Below are positions 58,323-63,555 of a DNA stretch of 64,000 nt, one piece after another; within the stretch, counting starts at the first letter, position 1, and every line of letters starts with the position of its first letter. The notes under the pieces are model-generated. The model did no database searches and had not been told where the DNA came from. It saw only the letters and a list, made by a program, of their open reading frames with translations. The stretch lies in the sequence record OM630585.1; one strand, 5' to 3'. Position numbers and translations under genes: made by a program. This DNA comes from Escherichia phage vB_EcoM_LNA6.

Positions 58323-58399
58323 CTCTGTTTAGCTCAGATTGGTAGAGCGTTCCGTTTGGGGCGGTAAGGCCGGAGGTTCAAGTCCTCCAACAGAGACCA
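58323..58399 (+). tRNA. tRNA-Pro (anticodon TGG)
   Basis: Manual fold: acceptor ctctgtt/aacagag, T-arm ggaggTTCAAGTcctcc, anticodon loop ttTGGgg, CCA encoded; anticodon stem has one mismatch. Confidence 0.55.
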
Positions 58400-58406
58400 A
58401 ATTAAT

Positions 58407-58484
58407 GTTCCAGTAGACAAAATGGTATAGTCACCACTCTTTCAAAGTGGATATCTGAGGGTTCAAATCCCTTCTGGAACGCCA
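58407..58484 (+). tRNA. tRNA-Glu (anticodon TTC)
   Basis: Acceptor gttccag/ctggaac, anticodon stem ccact/agtgg, loop ctTTCaa, T-loop TTCAAAT, CCA encoded. Confidence 0.65.
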
Positions 58485-58487
58485 GTT

Positions 58488-58566
58488 TTGACAGAAGACC
58501 AATTACAGCAAACTTAATCTTATTCATCTGAAGGTAAATCGGACAAAGAAGAGATTTGGTCTGGTC
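58488..58566 (+). repeat. tRNA-spacer module (AGAAGACC...ACAGCAA...GGTCTGG), copy 1
   Basis: acagaagaccaattacagcaaac ... ggtctggtc; ends can pair. Confidence 0.5.
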
Positions 58567-58585
58567 ATTAAGAATTGCGGGTATA

Positions 58586-58662
58586 GAGAAAGGGCGTCTC
58601 ACATGTCTCATTAGCATGGTATCGGCAGGTTCGACTCCTGCACCCGCCTCCAATTTTGCAGA
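58586..58662 (+). tRNA. tRNA-Met or Ile2 (anticodon CAT)
   Basis: Anticodon stem catgt/gcatg, loop ctCATta, T-arm gcaggTTCGACTcctgc; 1-72 pair mismatched, start +/-1. Confidence 0.55.
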
Positions 58663-58665
58663 AGA

Positions 58666-58722
58666 CCGTATTCAGCAACAAAATACTTTTTTGCGGATAA
58701 AAGAAAAAACACGGTCTGGCAA
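58666..58722 (+). repeat. tRNA-spacer module, copy 2
   Basis: gcagaagaccgtattcagcaaca ... acggtctggc. Confidence 0.5.
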
Positions 58723-58730
58723 TGTATTAA

Positions 58731-58807
58731 GGTTAGGAAGCACATAAGGTATGTGCGGTCGCCTGTTAAGCGAATGGCACAGGGTTCGAATCCCTGACTA
58801 ACCGCCA
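58731..58807 (+). tRNA. tRNA-Asn (anticodon GTT)
   Basis: T-arm cagggTTCGAATccctg, anticodon loop ctGTTaa, CCA encoded. Confidence 0.55.
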
Positions 58808-58815
58808 AATTAAAT

Positions 58816-58903
58816 GTGTCGTTATCCCGTAGATGGTAGCGGTGGGGACTGTAAATCCCTTGTCATTGAGACTCGGTAGGTTCGACTCCTACACGGCACA
58901 CCA
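58816..58903 (+). tRNA. tRNA-Tyr (anticodon GTA)
   Basis: Acceptor gtgtcgt/acggcac, anticodon loop ctGTAaa, long variable arm, T-loop TTCGACT, CCA encoded. Confidence 0.7.
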
Positions 58904-58908
58904 ATAAA

Positions 58909-58985
58909 GGCTATGTAGTTTAACTGGAGAAAATACTCCCCTGTCACGGGAGATGATGAGGGTTCAAATCCCTTCGTAACCGCCA
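58909..58985 (+). tRNA. tRNA-Asp (anticodon GTC)
   Basis: Anticodon stem ctccc/gggag, loop ctGTCac, T-loop TTCAAAT, CCA encoded. Confidence 0.65.
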
Positions 58986-59046
58986 ATTTTGAGAGGGCTA
59001 TTTAGCCCCTCCCTTAAAGAGTTCTTACGAGTATTCTTTAAAGGAG

Positions 59047-59123
59047 TAGAAGACCAAATACAGCAAGAATGTATGATATTTTCAAGCCAATTTAATTTTG
59101 AAAAATTTAAAACTTGGTCTGGC
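59047..59123 (+). repeat. tRNA-spacer module, copy 3
   Basis: gtagaagaccaaatacagcaaga ... ttggtctggc. Confidence 0.5.
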
Positions 59124-59135
59124 TCAACAAATTTA

Positions 59136-59258
59136 CAGAAGACCGTTTACAGCAAAACTTAAACAATCTGTTTCTCGGTAAAGAAAAGGCGAAGGTTCGA
59201 TTCCTTCACTCGGCAGATGTCGAGTTGGTGTAATGGTAGCACTTAAGATGATAAACAA
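59136..59258 (+). repeat. tRNA-spacer module, copy 4 (contains tRNA-like element)
   Basis: acagaagaccgtttacagcaaaa ... acggtctggt. Confidence 0.45.
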
Positions 59259-61542: not shown

Positions 61543-61618
61543 GCAGGATTAGTTCAAATGGATAGAGCAACAGTCTACGAAGCTGTTAATAGGGGTTCGA
61601 ATCCCTTATCCTGCGCCA
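61543..61618 (+). tRNA. tRNA-Arg (anticodon ACG)
   Basis: Acceptor gcaggat/atcctgc, anticodon stem acagt/gctgt, loop ctACGaa, T-loop TTCGAAT, CCA encoded. Confidence 0.7.
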
Positions 61619-61637
61619 ATTTAAAGAGGCTATTTAG

Positions 61638-62195
61638 ATGAGATATTTGAAGTATGCTTCATGGATTTTCTTAGCTTTGTTAGAGCCGTTTGCAGCAATC
61701 TTAGCAGTTATCTTAGCACCTTTTGTAGTTCCATTCTACAGTGAGAAGAAAGGACACTTACCTTTCGGGTTCAGATGGATGGAGACATATGACAACCCAA
61801 TTGATGGTGATGAAGGTCACGTTAAAAGATGGGCTAATATTAGATGGATTGGTAAACTAGGTGTCTACATGCAAAGAGTCGGATGGCTCTGGAGAAACAA
61901 AGCTTATAACTTCTCTTACCATGTATTAGGAAGAGATGTAAAAGATGTTACTAAGTGGAAAGGTAATATCAACGTAAGTTCTGACCCTGAAGATAATCAG
62001 ACTGGTTATCTCCTAATGTGGAACAGTAATGCTTGGGGATTATTCGCTTTTATCCCATCAATTAAAATCTTTGGTAAACAATTCTACTGGAGAATTTATG
62101 TTGGATGGAAACTAAAAAGTGTTGTCCCAGAAGAAAGAGCATTCTCAAGGGAAAGAGTTATGTTGGCATTCTTTATTCATCCACTGAGAAAGTAA
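61638..62195 (+). CDS. membrane protein (hypothetical)
   Basis: 185 aa, hydrophobic N-terminus; embedded in tRNA array. Confidence 0.4.
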   Translation: MRYLKYASWIFLALLEPFAAILAVILAPFVVPFYSEKKGHLPFGFRWMETYDNPIDGDEGHVKRWANIRWIGKLGVYMQRVGWLWRNKAYNFSYHVLGRDVKDVTKWKGNINVSSDPEDNQTGYLLMWNSNAWGLFAFIPSIKIFGKQFYWRIYVGWKLKSVVPEERAFSRERVMLAFFIHPLRK

Positions 62196-62203
62196 AGATT
62201 TAA

Positions 62204-62279
62204 AGGGGATTAGTTTACAAGGTTAAAACCTCGGTCTTTGAAATCGAAGAAGTTGGTTCAATTCCAACATCCCCCGCCA
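62204..62279 (+). tRNA. tRNA-Gln (anticodon TTG)
   Basis: Anticodon stem tcggt/atcga, loop ctTTGaa, T-arm gttggTTCAATTccaac, acceptor (a)ggggat/atccccc, CCA encoded. Confidence 0.6.
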
Positions 62280-62281
62280 AT

Positions 62282-62360
62282 GCTCCATTACTCCAATTGG
62301 CAGAGAGGCCAGACTTAAAATCTGTGTTATGTATCGGTTCGAATCCGATATGGAGTACCA
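62282..62360 (+). tRNA. tRNA with Leu anticodon TAA in class I scaffold
   Basis: Acceptor gctccat/atggagt, anticodon loop ctTAAaa, T-arm atcggTTCGAATccgat, discriminator A, CCA encoded. Confidence 0.55.
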
Positions 62361-62365
62361 AATTT

Positions 62366-62441
62366 AGCGGTATAGCATAACTGGCAATGCAACAGTCTCT
62401 GAAGCTGTCCTATTAAGGTTCAAATCCTTATGCCGCTGCCA
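62366..62441 (+). tRNA. tRNA-Gln (anticodon CTG)
   Basis: Acceptor agcggta/tgccgct, anticodon stem acagt/gctgt, loop ctCTGaa, T-arm taaggTTCAAATcctta, CCA encoded. Confidence 0.55.
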
Positions 62442-62472
62442 CTTCTAAGGATTCTTACGAGAGTCCTTAAAT

Positions 62473-62548
62473 GTGGCCTTATCATAAATGGTAATGACCC
62501 ATGCTGTGAACATGGTCTATACGGGTTCAAATCCCGTAGGTCACCCCA
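62473..62548 (+). tRNA. tRNA-His (anticodon GTG)
   Basis: Acceptor gtggcct/aggtcac, anticodon stem ccatg/catgg, loop ctGTGaa, T-arm acgggTTCAAATcccgt, discriminator C, CCA encoded. Confidence 0.7.
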
Positions 62549-62554
62549 ATTTAT

Positions 62555-62630
62555 AGTCCAAGTAGCTTATATGGTTAAAGCGCGTGTCTGAAAAACATGA
62601 GAAGAGGGTTCAAATCCCACTGGACTACCA
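62555..62630 (+). tRNA. tRNA-Phe (anticodon GAA)
   Basis: Anticodon stem cgtgt/acatg, loop ctGAAaa, T-loop TTCAAAT, acceptor agtccaa/ctggact, CCA encoded. Confidence 0.6.
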
Positions 62631-62646
62631 ATTTCAAAGGTGCTTA

Positions 62647-63381
62647 ATGAAAGAGATGACAGAACAAGGTAAGGAGATTTTTAATCTCTTAAAAACCGGT
62701 AAAGGGTTTTCTAACCCACTTATTACTGGTGCAGCAGTTCTCGGTGGAACCGTAGCTGCCTCTACATCACTTGTAAGCTCTATTAGTTCTGTAACAGACC
62801 CTACAATGCAGGAGAAACTTGTTGCTGCTGGACTTACAACAGTCCTTCTAAACAGCTTTACAACAAGCCTTACAAGCACTACAGCAACTACTAAGACCCT
62901 GACAGACTACGGTCAAAAATCTATTGATGAGTTTTCATCACGTATGCAGGTAGCAAAGGGATATTCCAATGTTATGGGTGCAGCAGGAGAACAAGTTGGT
63001 TGTACACCGTTCAGTGGTATTATGGGTGTTGCTACAGAATATGGTCAAAAAGCTATTGATACGATTAACAGTACACTAGAGAGTGTTAACGATGTATTAA
63101 GTGACTTACAAGACGCTATTGACAAGGGTCTTGATACTGTTTCTGATTTAGCTAACCAAGCTGTCAGTAAGATTAATGAAGGTATCTCAAAGATTACAGC
63201 TTATGCAGATGAAGTTGTGCAGATGATTGAAGAAGAAGCTGCCCTTATTGCAGAGTACCTTAAAACGAATATCAATGGGTTCTTAGCAGGTATCTTACCA
63301 GACTGGTTTGATGATGCCTGTAAAACTGGTGTAATTGACACTATTGCAACACCAGAAATGAAGAACGCATTACAGAAATAA
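62647..63381 (+). CDS. hypothetical protein
   Basis: Ser/Thr-rich N-terminus; start adjusted to ATG (track ORF 62584 overlaps a tRNA). Confidence 0.4.
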   Translation: MKEMTEQGKEIFNLLKTGKGFSNPLITGAAVLGGTVAASTSLVSSISSVTDPTMQEKLVAAGLTTVLLNSFTTSLTSTTATTKTLTDYGQKSIDEFSSRMQVAKGYSNVMGAAGEQVGCTPFSGIMGVATEYGQKAIDTINSTLESVNDVLSDLQDAIDKGLDTVSDLANQAVSKINEGISKITAYADEVVQMIEEEAALIAEYLKTNINGFLAGILPDWFDDACKTGVIDTIATPEMKNALQK

Positions 63382-63382
63382 T

Positions 63383-63475
63383 GGAAGATTAACCCTAAAA
63401 GGTAAGGGAGCAGTTTGCTAAACTGCCAGTAGCTGAGAAATCGGTGTACCAGTTCAAGTCTGGTATCTTCCTCCA
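63383..63475 (+). tRNA. tRNA-Ser (anticodon GCT)
   Basis: Acceptor ggaagat/atcttcc, anticodon stem gcagt/actgc, loop ttGCTaa, long variable arm, T-arm accagTTCAAGTctggt, CCA encoded. Confidence 0.7.
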
Positions 63476-63479
63476 ATTT

Positions 63480-63555
63480 GAATCCGTGACAGAAATGGCT
63501 ATGTGCCTGTCTGCAAAACAGGTTTATAAGGGTTCGAGTCCCTTCGGATTCTCCA
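63480..63555 (+). tRNA. tRNA-Cys (anticodon GCA)
   Basis: Acceptor gaatccg/cggattc, anticodon stem cctgt/acagg, loop ctGCAaa, T-arm aagggTTCGAGTccctt, CCA encoded. Confidence 0.7.

What the first reader, a model, noticed from the sequence alone, without database searches (positions are those of the whole stretch)
58323..63555. Array of about 27 tRNA genes covering all 20 amino acids, interleaved with ORFs
Manual folding finds 27 tRNA-like genes on the plus strand (Pro, Glu, 2 CAT, Asn, Tyr, Asp, 2 Lys, Ile, 2 Arg, Trp, 2 Ser, 3 Leu-anticodon, Ala, Gly, Thr, Val, 2 Gln, His, Phe, Cys), nearly all encoding CCA. A PD-(D/E)XK-like nuclease, a membrane protein and a 245-aa ORF are inserted within the array, and internal promoters and terminators are present. 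A complete decoding set implies substantial independence from host tRNA pools, possibly as a counter to tRNA-targeting defences.
Basis: seen in the sequence. Interest (0 to 1): 0.55.

Follow-up and report, generated by a model that had tools for sequence, protein, structure and literature searches.

The report
Known Felix O1-type phage tRNA array
The window holds the well-known tRNA gene cluster of a Felix O1-type phage of E. coli/Salmonella (26 ordinary tRNA genes plus one odd Trp-like gene); the array itself is ordinary, but the gaps between the tRNAs hold four unannotated Y-RNA-like genes matched to the Ro60-like protein encoded just upstream, and a tmRNA-like tag template.

Summary
Of these, 24 pass Rfam's tRNA threshold and 25 encode CCA. 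The 27th (Trp, anticodon CCA, 60441-60523) is missed by both programs but is a conserved cloverleaf with compensatory changes.

The region is 96-98% identical to Felixounavirus genomes (LinBro, VpaE1, JH2), whose tRNA cluster has been described since Felix O1, so the array is already known.

The anticodon set is a minimal complete set: one U34 tRNA per four-codon box, plus ACG for Arg. It favours codons that the AT-rich phage over-uses, such as AGA, AAG, ACA and UCA. Independence from host tRNA pools and a counter-defence role are plausible, with precedents in T5 and T6, but neither is shown here. In the relative Bas63 the tRNAs were mostly dispensable on laboratory hosts.

Beyond the finding:
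- The 471-aa ORF just upstream is a Ro60-like protein.
- Four inter-tRNA units are its likely Y RNAs; one (59130-59271) has the YrlA-type tRNA-like domain.
- A promoter-driven RNA at 59700-59870 carries a tmRNA-like ten-codon tag frame but no tRNA-like domain, and recurs in about 620 phage genomes.
- The ORFs in the array are a mobile PD-(D/E)XK nuclease and two DUF proteins.

The parts
56742..58157 (+). Ro60-like protein gene (DUF2828 + DUF7788/vWA), directly upstream of the array
   Evidence: Pfam DUF7788 at 1.7e-43 and DUF2828 at 6.6e-29. AlphaFold model pLDDT 88. The top nine Foldseek PDB hits are all Ro60/TROVE over the full length; 2i91_A has E 6.7e-9 and TM 0.68. It is 31-33% identical to the mycobacteriophage 'Ro-like RNA binding protein'. 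Bas63 gp130 was reported as Ro60-like and as a counter to the Ppl defence.
58267..58296 (+). sigma-70-like promoter ahead of tRNA-Pro
   Evidence: TTGACA-18-TAAAGT with an extended TG, 10 of 12 matches. This is a consensus match only.
58323..58399 (+). tRNA-Pro (TGG)
   Evidence: ARAGORN; Rfam 57.5 bits; CCA encoded.
58407..58484 (+). tRNA-Glu (TTC)
   Evidence: Rfam 56.8 bits; CCA encoded.
58489..58567 (+). Y-RNA-like unit 1 (short, no tRNA-like module)
   Evidence: Helix TGAC/AGA/AGACCA...TGGTCT/G/GTCA followed by CAGCAA. Model R1 gives 25.4 bits, end to end.
58576..58652 (+). tRNA with CAT anticodon, copy 1 (Met, or Ile2 if lysidinylated)
   Evidence: ARAGORN only; no Rfam hit. Called tRNA-Met by tRNAscan-SE in Sf13. 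U1.C72 mismatch and U37 read directly from the sequence.
58656..58722 (+). Y-RNA-like unit 2 (short)
   Evidence: TTGC/AGA/AGACCG...CGGTCT/G/GCAA plus CAGCAA. R1 gives 26.5 bits.
58731..58807 (+). tRNA-Asn (GTT)
   Evidence: Rfam 48.0 bits.
58816..58903 (+). tRNA-Tyr (GTA), long variable arm
   Evidence: ARAGORN. Rfam's tRNA model is below threshold; the tRNA-Sec model gives 29.6 bits. Flagged as a pseudogene in some relatives' annotation.
58909..58985 (+). tRNA-Asp (GTC)
   Evidence: Rfam 58.2 bits.
59044..59125 (+). Y-RNA-like unit 3 (short)
   Evidence: GAGT/AGA/AGACCA...TGGTCT/G/GCTC plus CAGCAA. R1 gives 18.1 bits with filters off.
59130..59271 (+). Y-RNA-like unit 4, YrlA-type: closing helix, CAGCAA, T arm, closed acceptor-like hairpin, D arm
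   Evidence: Model R1, built only from units next to DUF2828 genes of unrelated phages, gives 76.5 bits, E 3e-13, full length, and is the best hit in the 64-kb window. The MFE fold shows the same four helices.
59270..59412 (+). unassigned structured RNA closed by a 22-bp stem
   Evidence: MFE -45 kcal/mol, z -6.2, 0 of 200 shuffles fold as well. The L005 copy appears by eye to keep the closing stem through paired changes, with one mismatch; not counted formally.
59416..59491 (+). tRNA-Lys (TTT)
   Evidence: Rfam 54.4 bits.
59496..59572 (+). tRNA with CAT anticodon, copy 2
   Evidence: Rfam 55.1 bits.
59575..59649 (+). tRNA-Ile (GAT)
   Evidence: Rfam 63.4 bits.
59665..59693 (+). best sigma-70-like promoter of the region, internal to the array
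   Evidence: TTGACA-17-TATAGT, 11 of 12 matches.
59700..59870 (+). tmRNA-like RNA without a tRNA-like domain; tag frame 59743-59772 (ANDNVFLAVA), stops at 59773-59778
   Evidence: Weak Rfam tmRNA hits centred on AAAAUAAAUGCAAACGAC. The ten-codon frame is conserved in 11 phages of unrelated families, with variation concentrated at third positions. The hairpins covary.
59897..59973 (+). tRNA-Arg (TCT)
   Evidence: Rfam 62.7 bits.
59989..60330 (+). PD-(D/E)XK nuclease ORF (113 aa), variable insertion
   Evidence: Pfam PDDEXK_5 at 68.2 bits. The D33...E46-V-K48 motif is read from the translation. The ORF is absent at this site in fjerdesal and Sf13.
60441..60523 (+). atypical tRNA-Trp-like gene (anticodon CCA)
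   Evidence: Not called by ARAGORN or Rfam. 19 of 19 pairs are kept in six phages and 8 pairs carry compensatory changes. CCA is encoded.
60537..60626 (+). tRNA-Ser (TGA), no encoded CCA
   Evidence: Rfam 33.2 bits; 3' end read.
60882..60959 (+). tRNA-Leu (TAG)
   Evidence: Rfam 44.5 bits.
60967..61042 (+). tRNA-Lys (CTT)
   Evidence: Rfam 56.7 bits.
61049..61124 (+). tRNA-Ala (TGC)
   Evidence: Rfam 56.9 bits. G3.U70 read from the sequence.
61131..61205 (+). tRNA-Gly (TCC)
   Evidence: Rfam 59.6 bits.
61212..61288 (+). tRNA-Thr (TGT)
   Evidence: Rfam 54.7 bits.
61384..61458 (+). tRNA-Val (TAC)
   Evidence: Rfam 60.0 bits.
61460..61537 (+). tRNA-Leu (CAA)
   Evidence: Rfam 43.6 bits.
61543..61618 (+). 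tRNA-Arg (ACG)
   Evidence: Rfam 59.8 bits.
61638..62195 (+). DUF7338 ORF (185 aa) with an N-terminal hydrophobic segment; found at this place in most relatives checked
   Evidence: Pfam 207 bits. Kyte-Doolittle value >1.6 over residues 6-36. Present in fjerdesal, HP1 (annotated 'holin') and Felix O1; no ORF is annotated at this place in Sf13.
62204..62279 (+). tRNA-Gln (TTG)
   Evidence: Rfam 56.6 bits.
62282..62360 (+). tRNA-Leu (TAA)
   Evidence: Rfam 47.5 bits.
62366..62441 (+). tRNA-Gln (CTG)
   Evidence: Rfam 58.4 bits.
62473..62548 (+). tRNA-His (GTG)
   Evidence: Rfam 53.3 bits.
62555..62630 (+). tRNA-Phe (GAA)
   Evidence: Rfam 45.0 bits.
62647..63381 (+). DUF7217 ORF (244 aa from ATG; 265 aa from GTG at 62584, which overlaps tRNA-Phe)
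   Evidence: Pfam 297 bits; phrog_2114. Conserved in all relatives examined.
63383..63475 (+). tRNA-Ser (GCT)
   Evidence: Rfam 46.2 bits.
63480..63555 (+). tRNA-Cys (GCA)
   Evidence: Rfam 56.4 bits.
63719..63736 (+). intrinsic-terminator-like hairpin after the array
   Evidence: GACGGTCTCTGTGCCGTC followed by TTTTTT.

Best explanation
This is the tRNA gene cluster typical of Felix O1-type myophages (Felixounavirus).

Shown:
- There are 26 canonical tRNA genes and one conserved, atypical Trp-like gene, all on one strand. Nearly all have CCA encoded.
- The order matches that of the relatives.
- The anticodons form a minimal complete decoding set.

Inferred mechanism:
- The genes are transcribed as a few polycistronic precursors, from sigma-70-type promoters at about 58267 and 59665, ending near 63736.
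- Host RNase P and 3' nucleases cut the precursors.
- Host synthetases charge the tRNAs.
- The tRNAs then add decoders for the A/U-ending and rare codons (AGA, AAG, ACA, UCA, GUA, CUA, CCA) that this 39% G+C phage uses far more than its 51% G+C host.
- Because every codon box is represented, the same set can keep phage translation going when host tRNAs are depleted or cleaved.

Other contents. The array is also a carrier for other RNA genes and for mobile DNA. Four Y-RNA-like genes in its first kilobase are the probable partners of the Ro60-like protein encoded just upstream. A tmRNA-like tag template has its own promoter. A free-standing PD-(D/E)XK nuclease gene occupies one gap.
For: tRNA genes: 26 by ARAGORN and 24 at or above Rfam's threshold. 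The Trp-like cloverleaf shows 8 compensatory pairs. CCA is encoded in 26 of 27.

Identity with known phages: 96-98% identity and the same gene order in 231 Felixounavirus-type records, with tRNAs annotated in them. The literature gives Felix O1 22 tRNAs and wV8 23 (PMC2674420).

Decoding: one U34 tRNA per four-codon box. Relative to E. coli, codons cognate to the phage tRNAs are enriched: AGA 5.3x, AAG 3.5x, ACA 2.9x, UCA 2.6x, GUA 2.1x. Cognate against non-cognate codons gives Mann-Whitney p = 0.03. There is no near-identical copy in 5,426 E. coli genomes, so these are not recent host captures.

Counter-defence precedents: PMC11464382, PMC11555353, PMC13096335.

Y RNAs.
Against: - There are no expression, processing or charging data for this phage.
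- In Bas63 most tRNA genes were dispensable on four laboratory hosts.
- The codon enrichment is modest, and my genome-wide E. coli codon table was taken from memory; only the highly expressed gene set was computed.
- Three of the 27 genes fail Rfam's tRNA threshold, and Tyr and His are marked as pseudogenes in RefSeq Felix O1.
- Full decoding requires four-way wobble by U34 and a working Trp-like tRNA.
- The number of promoter and terminator matches is not above chance.
Confidence: 0.85

Rival explanations
1. Pure codon-usage compensation. The tRNAs exist only to match the AT-rich phage's codon demand to a GC-richer host, with no role in conflicts with host defence.
For: The phage is 38.7% G+C. 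Its tRNAs are mostly U34 types, and their cognate codons are over-used relative to E. coli (AGA 5.3x, AAG 3.5x, ACA 2.9x).
Against: The set also includes tRNAs for codons that are not enriched or are abundant in the host: CAG 0.49x, AGC 0.38x, CGT 0.83x, ATC 0.79x, TGG 0.83x. A full set for every box goes beyond what compensation needs. tRNA-targeting defences are countered by phage tRNAs in T5 and T6.
Confidence: 0.25
2. Dedicated counter-defence. The array is kept mainly to replace host tRNAs cut by anticodon or variable-loop nucleases (PARIS, PrrC, retron Eco7, Septu, OLD), and the neighbouring Ro60-like/Y-RNA module handles damaged tRNA.
For: All isotypes are represented. The phage tRNAs are not close copies of host tRNAs. 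Experimental precedents exist in T5 and T6 (PMC11464382, PMC11555353, PMC13096335). Bas63 tRNAs are non-essential on defence-poor laboratory strains, as expected of conditional genes, and the adjacent Ro60-like gene counters a defence system.
Against: No Felixounavirus tRNA has been tied to a specific defence system in the papers I read. Resistance of these tRNAs to any nuclease was not tested. The Ppl system countered by gp130 is proposed to act on DNA, not on tRNA.
Confidence: 0.3
3. Replacement after host shut-off. The phage degrades host nucleic acids or stops host transcription, host tRNAs decay, and the phage set sustains late protein synthesis. This model was proposed for tRNA-rich lytic phages; I state it from my own knowledge of the literature, not from a paper read here.
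For: The set is complete and has its own promoters.
Against: Nothing in the window bears on host tRNA turnover, and tRNAs are long-lived compared with a lytic cycle.
Confidence: 0.15
4. Several annotated 'tRNA genes' are not tRNAs but Y RNAs or decayed pseudogenes, as suggested in passing for Bas63.
For: The PhageMaP authors raised this possibility. CAT-1, Tyr and the Trp-like gene score poorly with Rfam.
Against: The units that match the Y-RNA model lie in the gaps between tRNA genes, not on them. The model touches tRNA genes only as weak junction artefacts of 30 bits or less, against 76.5 bits for unit 4. The weak tRNAs keep intact cloverleaves, anticodon loops and CCA ends.
Confidence: 0.05

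Closest known systems
tRNA cluster of Salmonella phage Felix O1 and relatives (wV8, VpaE1, Bas63; genus Felixounavirus)
   Same: Same genome position: after the DUF5681 and DUF2828 genes and before the terminase gene. Same tRNA order. 96-98% nucleotide identity to several members.
   Different: The tRNA count differs with endonuclease insertions. ARAGORN finds 25 in Felix O1, which carries three HNH ORFs. This window has 26 plus the Trp-like gene, and carries a PD-(D/E)XK ORF instead.
tRNA regions of coliphages T5 and T4/T6
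   Same: Clustered phage tRNA genes interleaved with small ORFs, free-standing homing endonucleases (SegB in T4/T6) and small stable RNAs. Individual tRNAs there are shown to neutralise PARIS, retron Eco7 and Septu (PMC11464382, PMC11555353, PMC13096335).
   Different: These are unrelated phage lineages. The T4 set is small, by my own knowledge. No Ro60-like gene or Y RNA is reported there. Function is shown experimentally there but not here.
Bxz1/ET08-type mycobacteriophages: tRNA array + Ro-like protein + YrlA Y RNA + tmRNA
   Same: The same combination of parts. Their 'Ro-like RNA binding protein' is 31-33% identical over its full length to the window's 471-aa protein. YrlA-like RNAs were reported next to it (PMC4201824). 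ssrA was reported in the same phages (PMC4131195).
   Different: The hosts belong to different phyla. Here the Y RNAs carry a different conserved stem motif (AGA-AGACC...CAGCAA) and do not reach Rfam's YrlA threshold. The tmRNA-like RNA here lacks the tRNA-like domain.
Bacterial Ro60 (Rsr) with YrlA/YrlB Y RNAs (Salmonella rsr-yrlBA-rtcBA, Deinococcus Rsr-Yrn1)
   Same: A ring plus vWA fold. The RNA genes lie within 1.2 kb of the gene on the same strand. There is one long RNA with T arm, closed acceptor-like hairpin and D arm, plus short ones without, like YrlA and YrlB (PMC4201824).
   Different: Pfam's TROVE family was not among the matches listed at E <= 0.1; only DUF2828 and DUF7788 were. 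The GNCGAAN0-1G motif is replaced. There are four RNA copies, embedded in a tRNA array. Binding has not been tested.
Bacterial tmRNA (ssrA)
   Same: The A-rich leader ...AAAAUAAAU followed by GCA AAC GAC. A ten-codon tag, ANDNVFLAVA, against E. coli ANDENYALAA. Stop codons placed in a hairpin. Structured RNA downstream.
   Different: No acceptor stem, T arm or CCA, and therefore no way to be charged with alanine. About 170 nt instead of 363. Below Rfam's threshold.

Membership tests
tRNA (Rfam RF00005 / ARAGORN) | Cloverleaf scoring at or above the curated covariance-model threshold | tested here: met
   24 of 27 score 33-63 bits against a gathering score of 29. CAT-1, Tyr and the Trp-like gene do not.
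tRNA (Rfam RF00005 / ARAGORN) | Seven-base anticodon loop with an assignable anticodon, found by a heuristic tRNA finder | tested here: met
   26 of 27 by ARAGORN at default settings. The Trp-like gene is shown only by manual alignment with covariation.
tRNA (Rfam RF00005 / ARAGORN) | Expression, processing and aminoacylation | not testable with these tools
   Needs tRNA-seq, Northern blots or acid gels.
Felixounavirus tRNA cluster | Synteny and high nucleotide identity with the cluster of described members | tested here: met
   231 records cover at least 80% of 58000-64000, most at 95-99% identity. The order of the tRNAs the records share is the same in fjerdesal, Sf13 and Felix O1.
Complete decoding set | At least one tRNA for each of the 20 amino acids | tested here: inconclusive
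   19 amino acids are covered by canonical genes. Trp is covered only by the atypical gene at 60441-60523.
Complete decoding set | Every sense codon readable | tested here: inconclusive
   45 codons (78% of usage) are readable by strict wobble. All are readable only if U34 reads four ways and one CAT tRNA reads AUA.
Ro60 / TROVE proteins | HEAT-repeat ring followed by a vWA domain | tested here: met
   The nine best Foldseek hits are all Ro60 or TROVE structures aligned over about 500-560 columns, with TM up to 0.68.
Ro60 / TROVE proteins | Sequence membership (Pfam TROVE) | tested here: not met
   Only DUF2828 and DUF7788 match at E <= 0.1. No PDB chain is found by sequence.
YrlA-type Y RNA (Rfam RF02553; Chen et al. 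2014) | Encoded within 4 kb of the Ro60 gene on the same strand | tested here: met
   The units lie at 58489-59271, that is 0.3-1.1 kb downstream of the ORF that ends at 58157, on the + strand. All 52 model hits in 88 loci are on the gene's strand.
YrlA-type Y RNA (Rfam RF02553; Chen et al. 2014) | Closing stem, then T arm, closed acceptor-like hairpin, D arm, in that order | tested here: met
   Unit 4 aligns end to end to model R1 at 76.5 bits. In the family alignment 94% of cells are paired and 20 of 23 pairs are compensatory.
YrlA-type Y RNA (Rfam RF02553; Chen et al. 2014) | Reaches Rfam's gathering score (69 bits) | tested here: not met
   There is no YrlA hit in the window at E <= 5. Related phage units score 29-42 bits, full length, with E from 5e-6 to 0.04.
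YrlA-type Y RNA (Rfam RF02553; Chen et al. 2014) | GNCGAAN0-1G motif near the 5' end | tested here: not met
   The units have ACAGAAGACC instead; only the GAAG core is shared.
YrlA-type Y RNA (Rfam RF02553; Chen et al. 2014) | Bound by the Ro60 protein | not testable with these tools
   Needs immunoprecipitation or gel shift.
tmRNA | Tag reading frame that starts at a resume codon without a start codon and ends at a conserved stop | tested here: met
   GCA plus 9 codons, with the stop at codon 11 in 11 phages. Variable sites at codon positions 1/2/3 number 4/5/8 of 10.
tmRNA | tRNA-like domain (acceptor stem with G3.U70, T arm, CCA) | tested here: not met
   ARAGORN and Rfam find none in the window or in three other phages.
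tmRNA | Reaches Rfam's gathering score (47 bits) | tested here: not met
   15.3 bits for tmRNA. 32.5 bits for the permuted model, which borrows the T arm of tRNA-Ile.
PD-(D/E)XK nuclease / free-standing homing endonuclease | Family profile match and catalytic D...(D/E)xK | tested here: met
   PF11645 at 68.2 bits against a cut-off of 26.1. D33...E46-V-K48 in the translation.
PD-(D/E)XK nuclease / free-standing homing endonuclease | Presence/absence polymorphism among close relatives | tested here: met
   Absent between Arg-TCT and Ser-TGA in fjerdesal and Sf13. Felix O1 carries HNH ORFs in this and two other gaps.

The most novel reading that the evidence does not exclude
The array is more than a tRNA supply. 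It would be a composite RNA island recurring in unrelated tRNA-rich phages, combining a minimal full tRNA set, a Ro60-like protein with its own family of Y RNAs (a new stem motif, found next to DUF2828 genes in dozens of phage lineages), and a tmRNA-like tag template that has no tRNA-like domain.

The tag template is conserved as a translated ten-codon frame (AN[DE]xx[FYV]L[AM][VA]A) in about 620 phage genomes of at least five families. That would mean these phages direct, or redirect, the tagging of stalled-ribosome products by a route that does not use a canonical one-piece tmRNA.
Probability: 0.3. Interest if true: 0.8.

Novelty: already known. Interest (0 to 1): 0.35.

Why it matters
The tRNA array itself adds nothing new. 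It belongs to a described genus and fits current ideas on why lytic phages carry tRNAs. The useful outcomes are three:
1. The claim of 'all 20 amino acids' rests on one non-canonical Trp-like gene that standard tools miss.
2. The Y RNAs that the PhageMaP authors guessed might hide among Bas63's tRNA annotations can now be placed at exact coordinates in the gaps. This gives a direct handle on how the Ro60-like anti-defence protein works.
3. A widespread, unannotated tmRNA-like element becomes visible and testable.

Tried and rejected
- ARAGORN at lowered thresholds (ps80, ps70) gave 47-87 calls, including many spurious permuted tmRNAs and reverse-strand tRNAs, and was discarded.
- A first, loose descriptor for the Y-like units (G-U pairs allowed, wide spacing) gave about 185 hits in shuffled sequence and was useless. 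The strict version gave 91 hits on the gene strand, 15 on the other and 12.6 in shuffles.
- Rfam's own YrlA model does not see the window's units.
- A sequence search of the 471-aa protein against the PDB found nothing; only the fold search did.
- I looked for a tRNA-like domain for the tmRNA-like RNA in the window, in three other phages and around Felix O1, and found none.
- The compact tRNA-like molecules with inserts in phiEa21-4 and P778 have no homologue in the window.
- The 5' end of the tmRNA-like RNA (AGUUUUCGU) is complementary to the tag codons of E. coli ssrA, but a 9-mer of that kind arises in 16% of shuffles, so I do not rely on it. An RNAduplex run timed out.
- Literature searches for DUF2828, for the tag peptides and for 'tmRNA-like' in phages found nothing relevant.
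- The statement in a genome announcement that Felix O1 'encodes the tmRNA ssrA' (PMC4392139) could not be reproduced with ARAGORN on the Felix O1 array region.

Full report
**1. What the window is**

Bases 58000-64000 match 313 phage records. In 231 of them one alignment covers at least 80% of the query, mostly at 95-99% identity. The best matches are Escherichia phages LinBro, VpaE1 and JH2, and Felixounavirus isolates. The flanks agree with this assignment:
- upstream, a DUF5681 gene and a 471-aa DUF2828 gene;
- downstream, a small ORF and then the large terminase in the relatives.

The window is therefore part of a Felix O1-type myophage. The tRNA cluster of this genus is in the literature: Felix O1 has 22 tRNAs and wV8 has 23 (PMC2674420).

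**2. Checking the observation**

- ARAGORN finds 26 tRNA genes in the whole 64-kb window.
- Rfam's tRNA model passes its curated threshold for 24 of them.
- The two exceptions are the first CAT tRNA (58576-58652) and tRNA-Tyr (58816-58903), a long-variable-arm tRNA that scores 29.6 bits with the tRNA-Sec model. tRNAscan-SE called both in the annotation of phage Sf13.
- I aligned its homologues from six Ounavirinae phages. All 19 pairs of a cloverleaf are kept in every sequence. Eight pairs carry compensatory changes, four of them in the anticodon stem. The loop (C/U)UCCAA(A/C) and the CCA end are invariant or nearly so.
- Three features make it unusual: a ten-base linker between the acceptor stem and a three-pair D stem, a C31.A39 (or C.C) mismatch, and a weak first T-stem pair. 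It is a selected, structured, tRNA-shaped RNA with a Trp anticodon. Whether it is charged is unknown.
- Erwinia phage phiEa21-4, a more distant relative, has an ordinary tRNA-Trp instead.
- 25 of the 26 canonical genes and the Trp-like gene end in CCA; Ser-TGA does not.

**3. The ORFs**

- 59989-60330 is a PD-(D/E)XK nuclease (Pfam PDDEXK_5, 68 bits; the D33...E46-V-K48 motif is visible). It is missing from the same gap in fjerdesal and Sf13.
- Felix O1 carries three HNH endonuclease ORFs in this and two other gaps. These behave as free-standing homing-type endonucleases. For comparison, SegB in the T4/T6 tRNA region cuts inside tRNA genes and drives amplification of tRNA-Tyr under Septu pressure (PMC13096335).
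- 61638-62195 (DUF7338) has one N-terminal hydrophobic segment.
- 62647-63381 (DUF7217) is a coiled, Ala/Thr-rich protein.
- Both DUF genes are conserved residents of the array in most relatives checked (Sf13 has no DUF7338 ORF annotated) and have no assigned function.

**4. Promoters and terminators**

- The two best + strand promoter matches lie just before tRNA-Pro (58267-58296) and inside the array (59665-59693, 11 of 12 consensus positions).
- A clean terminator follows the array at 63719-63736.
- The total number of such matches does not exceed that in shuffled sequence. 'Internal promoters and terminators' is therefore plausible but not established.

**5. What the tRNA set can decode**

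The 27 anticodons are not a random sample.
- Each four-codon box has exactly one tRNA with U at position 34: Leu TAG, Val TAC, Ser TGA, Pro TGG, Thr TGT, Ala TGC, Gly TCC.
- Arg has ACG.
- Each two-codon box has its tRNA.
- The extras are the C34 partners for Leu, Gln and Lys, and a second CAT.

This is the layout of a minimal complete decoding set; that reading rests on the established wobble rules. By strict wobble it covers 45 codons and 78% of the codons in 53 long ORFs of the window. Full coverage needs four-way reading by U34, and AUA reading by one CAT tRNA.

Codons cognate to the phage tRNAs are used more by the phage than by E. coli: AGA 5.3-fold, AAG 3.5, ACA 2.9, UCA 2.6, GUA 2.1. 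The overall contrast with non-cognate codons is modest (Mann-Whitney p = 0.03). Several tRNAs serve codons that are not enriched at all. One caveat applies: the genome-wide E. coli values came from my memory of the standard table. Only the set of ribosomal-protein and elongation-factor genes was computed here.

The tRNA region has no megablast match in 5,426 complete E. coli genomes.

**6. How it most likely works**

The sequence shows a set of processed-looking, CCA-bearing tRNA genes under their own promoters. Function is inferred as follows.
- They are cut out by host enzymes and charged by host synthetases.
- They raise the supply of decoders for the phage's A/U-rich codons.
- Because no codon box is left out, they also buffer translation against loss of host tRNAs.

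A counter-defence role has direct precedent in T5 (tRNA-Lys against PARIS, tRNA-Tyr against retron Eco7) and in T6 (tRNA-Tyr against Septu) (PMC11464382, PMC11555353, PMC13096335). For this genus the only functional data I found are from Bas63. There the tRNA genes were mostly non-essential on four laboratory strains, and the authors regard them as conditionally useful.

**7. The gene upstream is a Ro60-like protein**

- The 471-aa ORF (56742-58157) matches only DUF2828 and DUF7788 in Pfam.
- It has no sequence match in the PDB.
- An AlphaFold model built on 40 homologues (pLDDT 88) gives Ro60/TROVE structures as its nine best PDB matches over the full length: Xenopus Ro60, Deinococcus Rsr and the Ro60 of Thermus phage phiLo.
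- By tblastn it is 31-33% identical to the mycobacteriophage 'Ro-like RNA binding protein'.
- The same resemblance was reported for Bas63 gp130, which counters the Ppl defence. Those authors speculated that some annotated tRNAs might be Y RNAs.

**8. The Y RNAs are in the gaps, not among the tRNAs**

Four units lie between tRNA-Glu and tRNA-Lys, at 58489-58567, 58656-58722, 59044-59125 and 59130-59271. They share one design:
- a 4-bp outer stem that differs between units but stays complementary;
- an internal loop of AGA opposite G;
- the helix AGACC(N)/(N)GGTCT;
- a single-stranded (U)UNCAGCAA.

The fourth unit also holds a T arm, a closed seven-pair hairpin in the place of the acceptor stem, and a D arm, in that order. 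This is the architecture described for bacterial YrlA (PMC4201824).

I then fetched 80 loci encoding DUF2828 homologues of about 40% identity.
- A strict descriptor of the design hits the gene strand 91 times, the other strand 15 times and shuffled sequence 12.6 times.
- Rfam's YrlA model hits four such units in three loci. The matches are full length with E from 5e-6 to 0.04, but below its threshold.
- I aligned 15 units from loci outside the Felix O1 subfamily. In that alignment 94% of cells are paired against 59.5% in shuffles, and 20 of 23 pairs have compensatory changes.
- One caveat: I chose the closing helix by complementarity, so only the three inner helices are an unbiased test. They show 79-97% pairing.
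- A covariance model built from that alignment gives the window's unit 4 76.5 bits (E 3e-13), far above anything else in the window. It gives units 2, 1 and 3 scores of 26.5, 25.4 and 18.1 bits, with the tRNA-like module skipped.
- Its only other hits are junctions of tandem tRNAs at 30 bits or less, an artefact the original authors also noted.
- Across the 88 loci all 52 hits lie on the gene's strand, many directly beside the gene.
- Erwinia phage phiEa21-4 has the tRNA array but no DUF2828 gene at the syntenic place, and it has none of these units.

I conclude that the units are the Y RNAs of the Ro60-like protein. Homology and linkage are shown; binding is inferred.

**9. A tmRNA-like RNA without a tRNA-like domain**

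Behind the promoter at 59665-59693 lies a conserved RNA of about 170 nt. Its centre reads AAAAUAAAU GCA AAC GAC AAU GUU UUU CUG GCA GUA GCU UGA UAG. For comparison, the E. coli tmRNA tag is ANDENYALAA.

- blastn finds the element in 624 phage records. These include Ackermannviridae, the schitovirus Pollock, Skatevirus, Deseoctovirus and Klebsiella siphophages, and the element is always unannotated.
- In 11 phages the frame starts with GCA after AUAAAU and stops at codon 11.
- It encodes ANDNVFLAVA, ANDAQFLAVA, ANDNTFLAVA, ANEEMYLAVA or ANDDVVLMAA.
- Eight of ten third positions vary, against four and five of the first and second positions. The other two frames contain stops.
- The stop codons sit in a hairpin, and two further hairpins covary.
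- No acceptor stem or T arm goes with the element.
- Complete phage tmRNAs with tags ending in ...ELAVA lie 4.5 kb downstream of DUF2828 genes in two metagenomic loci.
- An exhaustive survey in 2014 listed ssrA only in Bxz1-type mycobacteriophages, Bacillus phage G and DS6A (PMC4131195). The first of these are the same phages that carry Ro-like proteins and YrlA.

The frame looks translated, but I cannot say how it would be delivered to a ribosome.

**10. Verdict**

The finding is real, precisely located and correctly described, and it is an already known feature of a well-studied phage genus. Its interpretation is reasonable but unproven. The more interesting content lies between the tRNA genes.

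Noticed in passing
window 59700-59870 (+); tag frame 59743-59772, stops 59773-59778; promoter 59665-59693: An RNA resembling the mRNA-like part of tmRNA, with a ten-codon frame ANDNVFLAVA but no tRNA-like domain. Homologous elements with frames ANDAQFLAVA, ANDNTFLAVA, ANEEMYLAVA and ANDDVVLMAA occur unannotated in 624 phage records of unrelated families. Variation is concentrated at third codon positions.
   Followed up: partly
window 58489-58567, 58656-58722, 59044-59125, 59130-59271 (+), and ORF 56742-58157: Four Y-RNA-like genes in the gaps of the array, next to a Ro60-like (DUF2828/vWA) gene. The same RNA design lies beside DUF2828 genes in dozens of unrelated phage contigs.
   Followed up: yes
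window 59270-59412 (+): A 143-nt RNA closed by a 22-bp stem, with MFE -45 kcal/mol and z -6.2. The copy in locus L005 appears by eye to keep the stem through paired changes, which I did not count formally. It matches no Rfam family.
   Followed up: partly
window 61289-61383, 60791-60880, 58991-59041, 62446-62470 (+): Further stable hairpins fill the remaining gaps (z -3.0 to -3.9). Two of them, and one in phiEa21-4, share the loop sequence UUCUUACGAG. They may be processing or termination signals.
   Followed up: no
L003 (Erwinia phage phiEa21-4) 6250-6425; L006 (Yersinia phage P778) 10142-10262: Compact tRNA-like molecules with an acceptor stem and T arm (CCA encoded in phiEa21-4). In place of the anticodon arm they hold a 60-100-nt insert containing GUAAAU followed by a very short frame and a stop. 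They look like miniature tmRNAs with a tRNA-like domain. There is no homologue in the window.
   Followed up: partly
L035 11822-12176 and L041 12119-12479: Complete tmRNA genes (Rfam 66 and 61 bits) lie about 4.5 kb downstream of DUF2828 genes in two viral contigs. Their tags end in ...GELAVA, the same C-terminus as the window's tag frame.
   Followed up: partly
window 59989-60330 versus L092 (Felix O1) 3031-3516, 4004-4396, 5314-5727: Different isolates carry different free-standing endonuclease genes in different gaps of the same array: PD-(D/E)XK here, three HNH genes in Felix O1, none in fjerdesal or Sf13. The number of intact tRNA genes changes accordingly.
   Followed up: partly
window 59700-59708 versus E. 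coli ssrA positions 97-105 (L099): The conserved 5' end of the tmRNA-like RNA, AGUUUUCGU, is perfectly complementary to the tag codons ACGAAAACU of the host tmRNA. A match of this length arises in 16% of shuffles, so it may be chance.
   Followed up: partly
L007 (Vibrio phage phi-pp2), L008 (148-kb contig), L014, L036-L038, L057, L067, L075: DUF2828 genes of quite different phage types also sit inside or beside tRNA arrays, always on the same strand as the tRNAs. About 30 of the 75 diverse loci from IMG/VR have tRNAs within 6 kb.
   Followed up: partly
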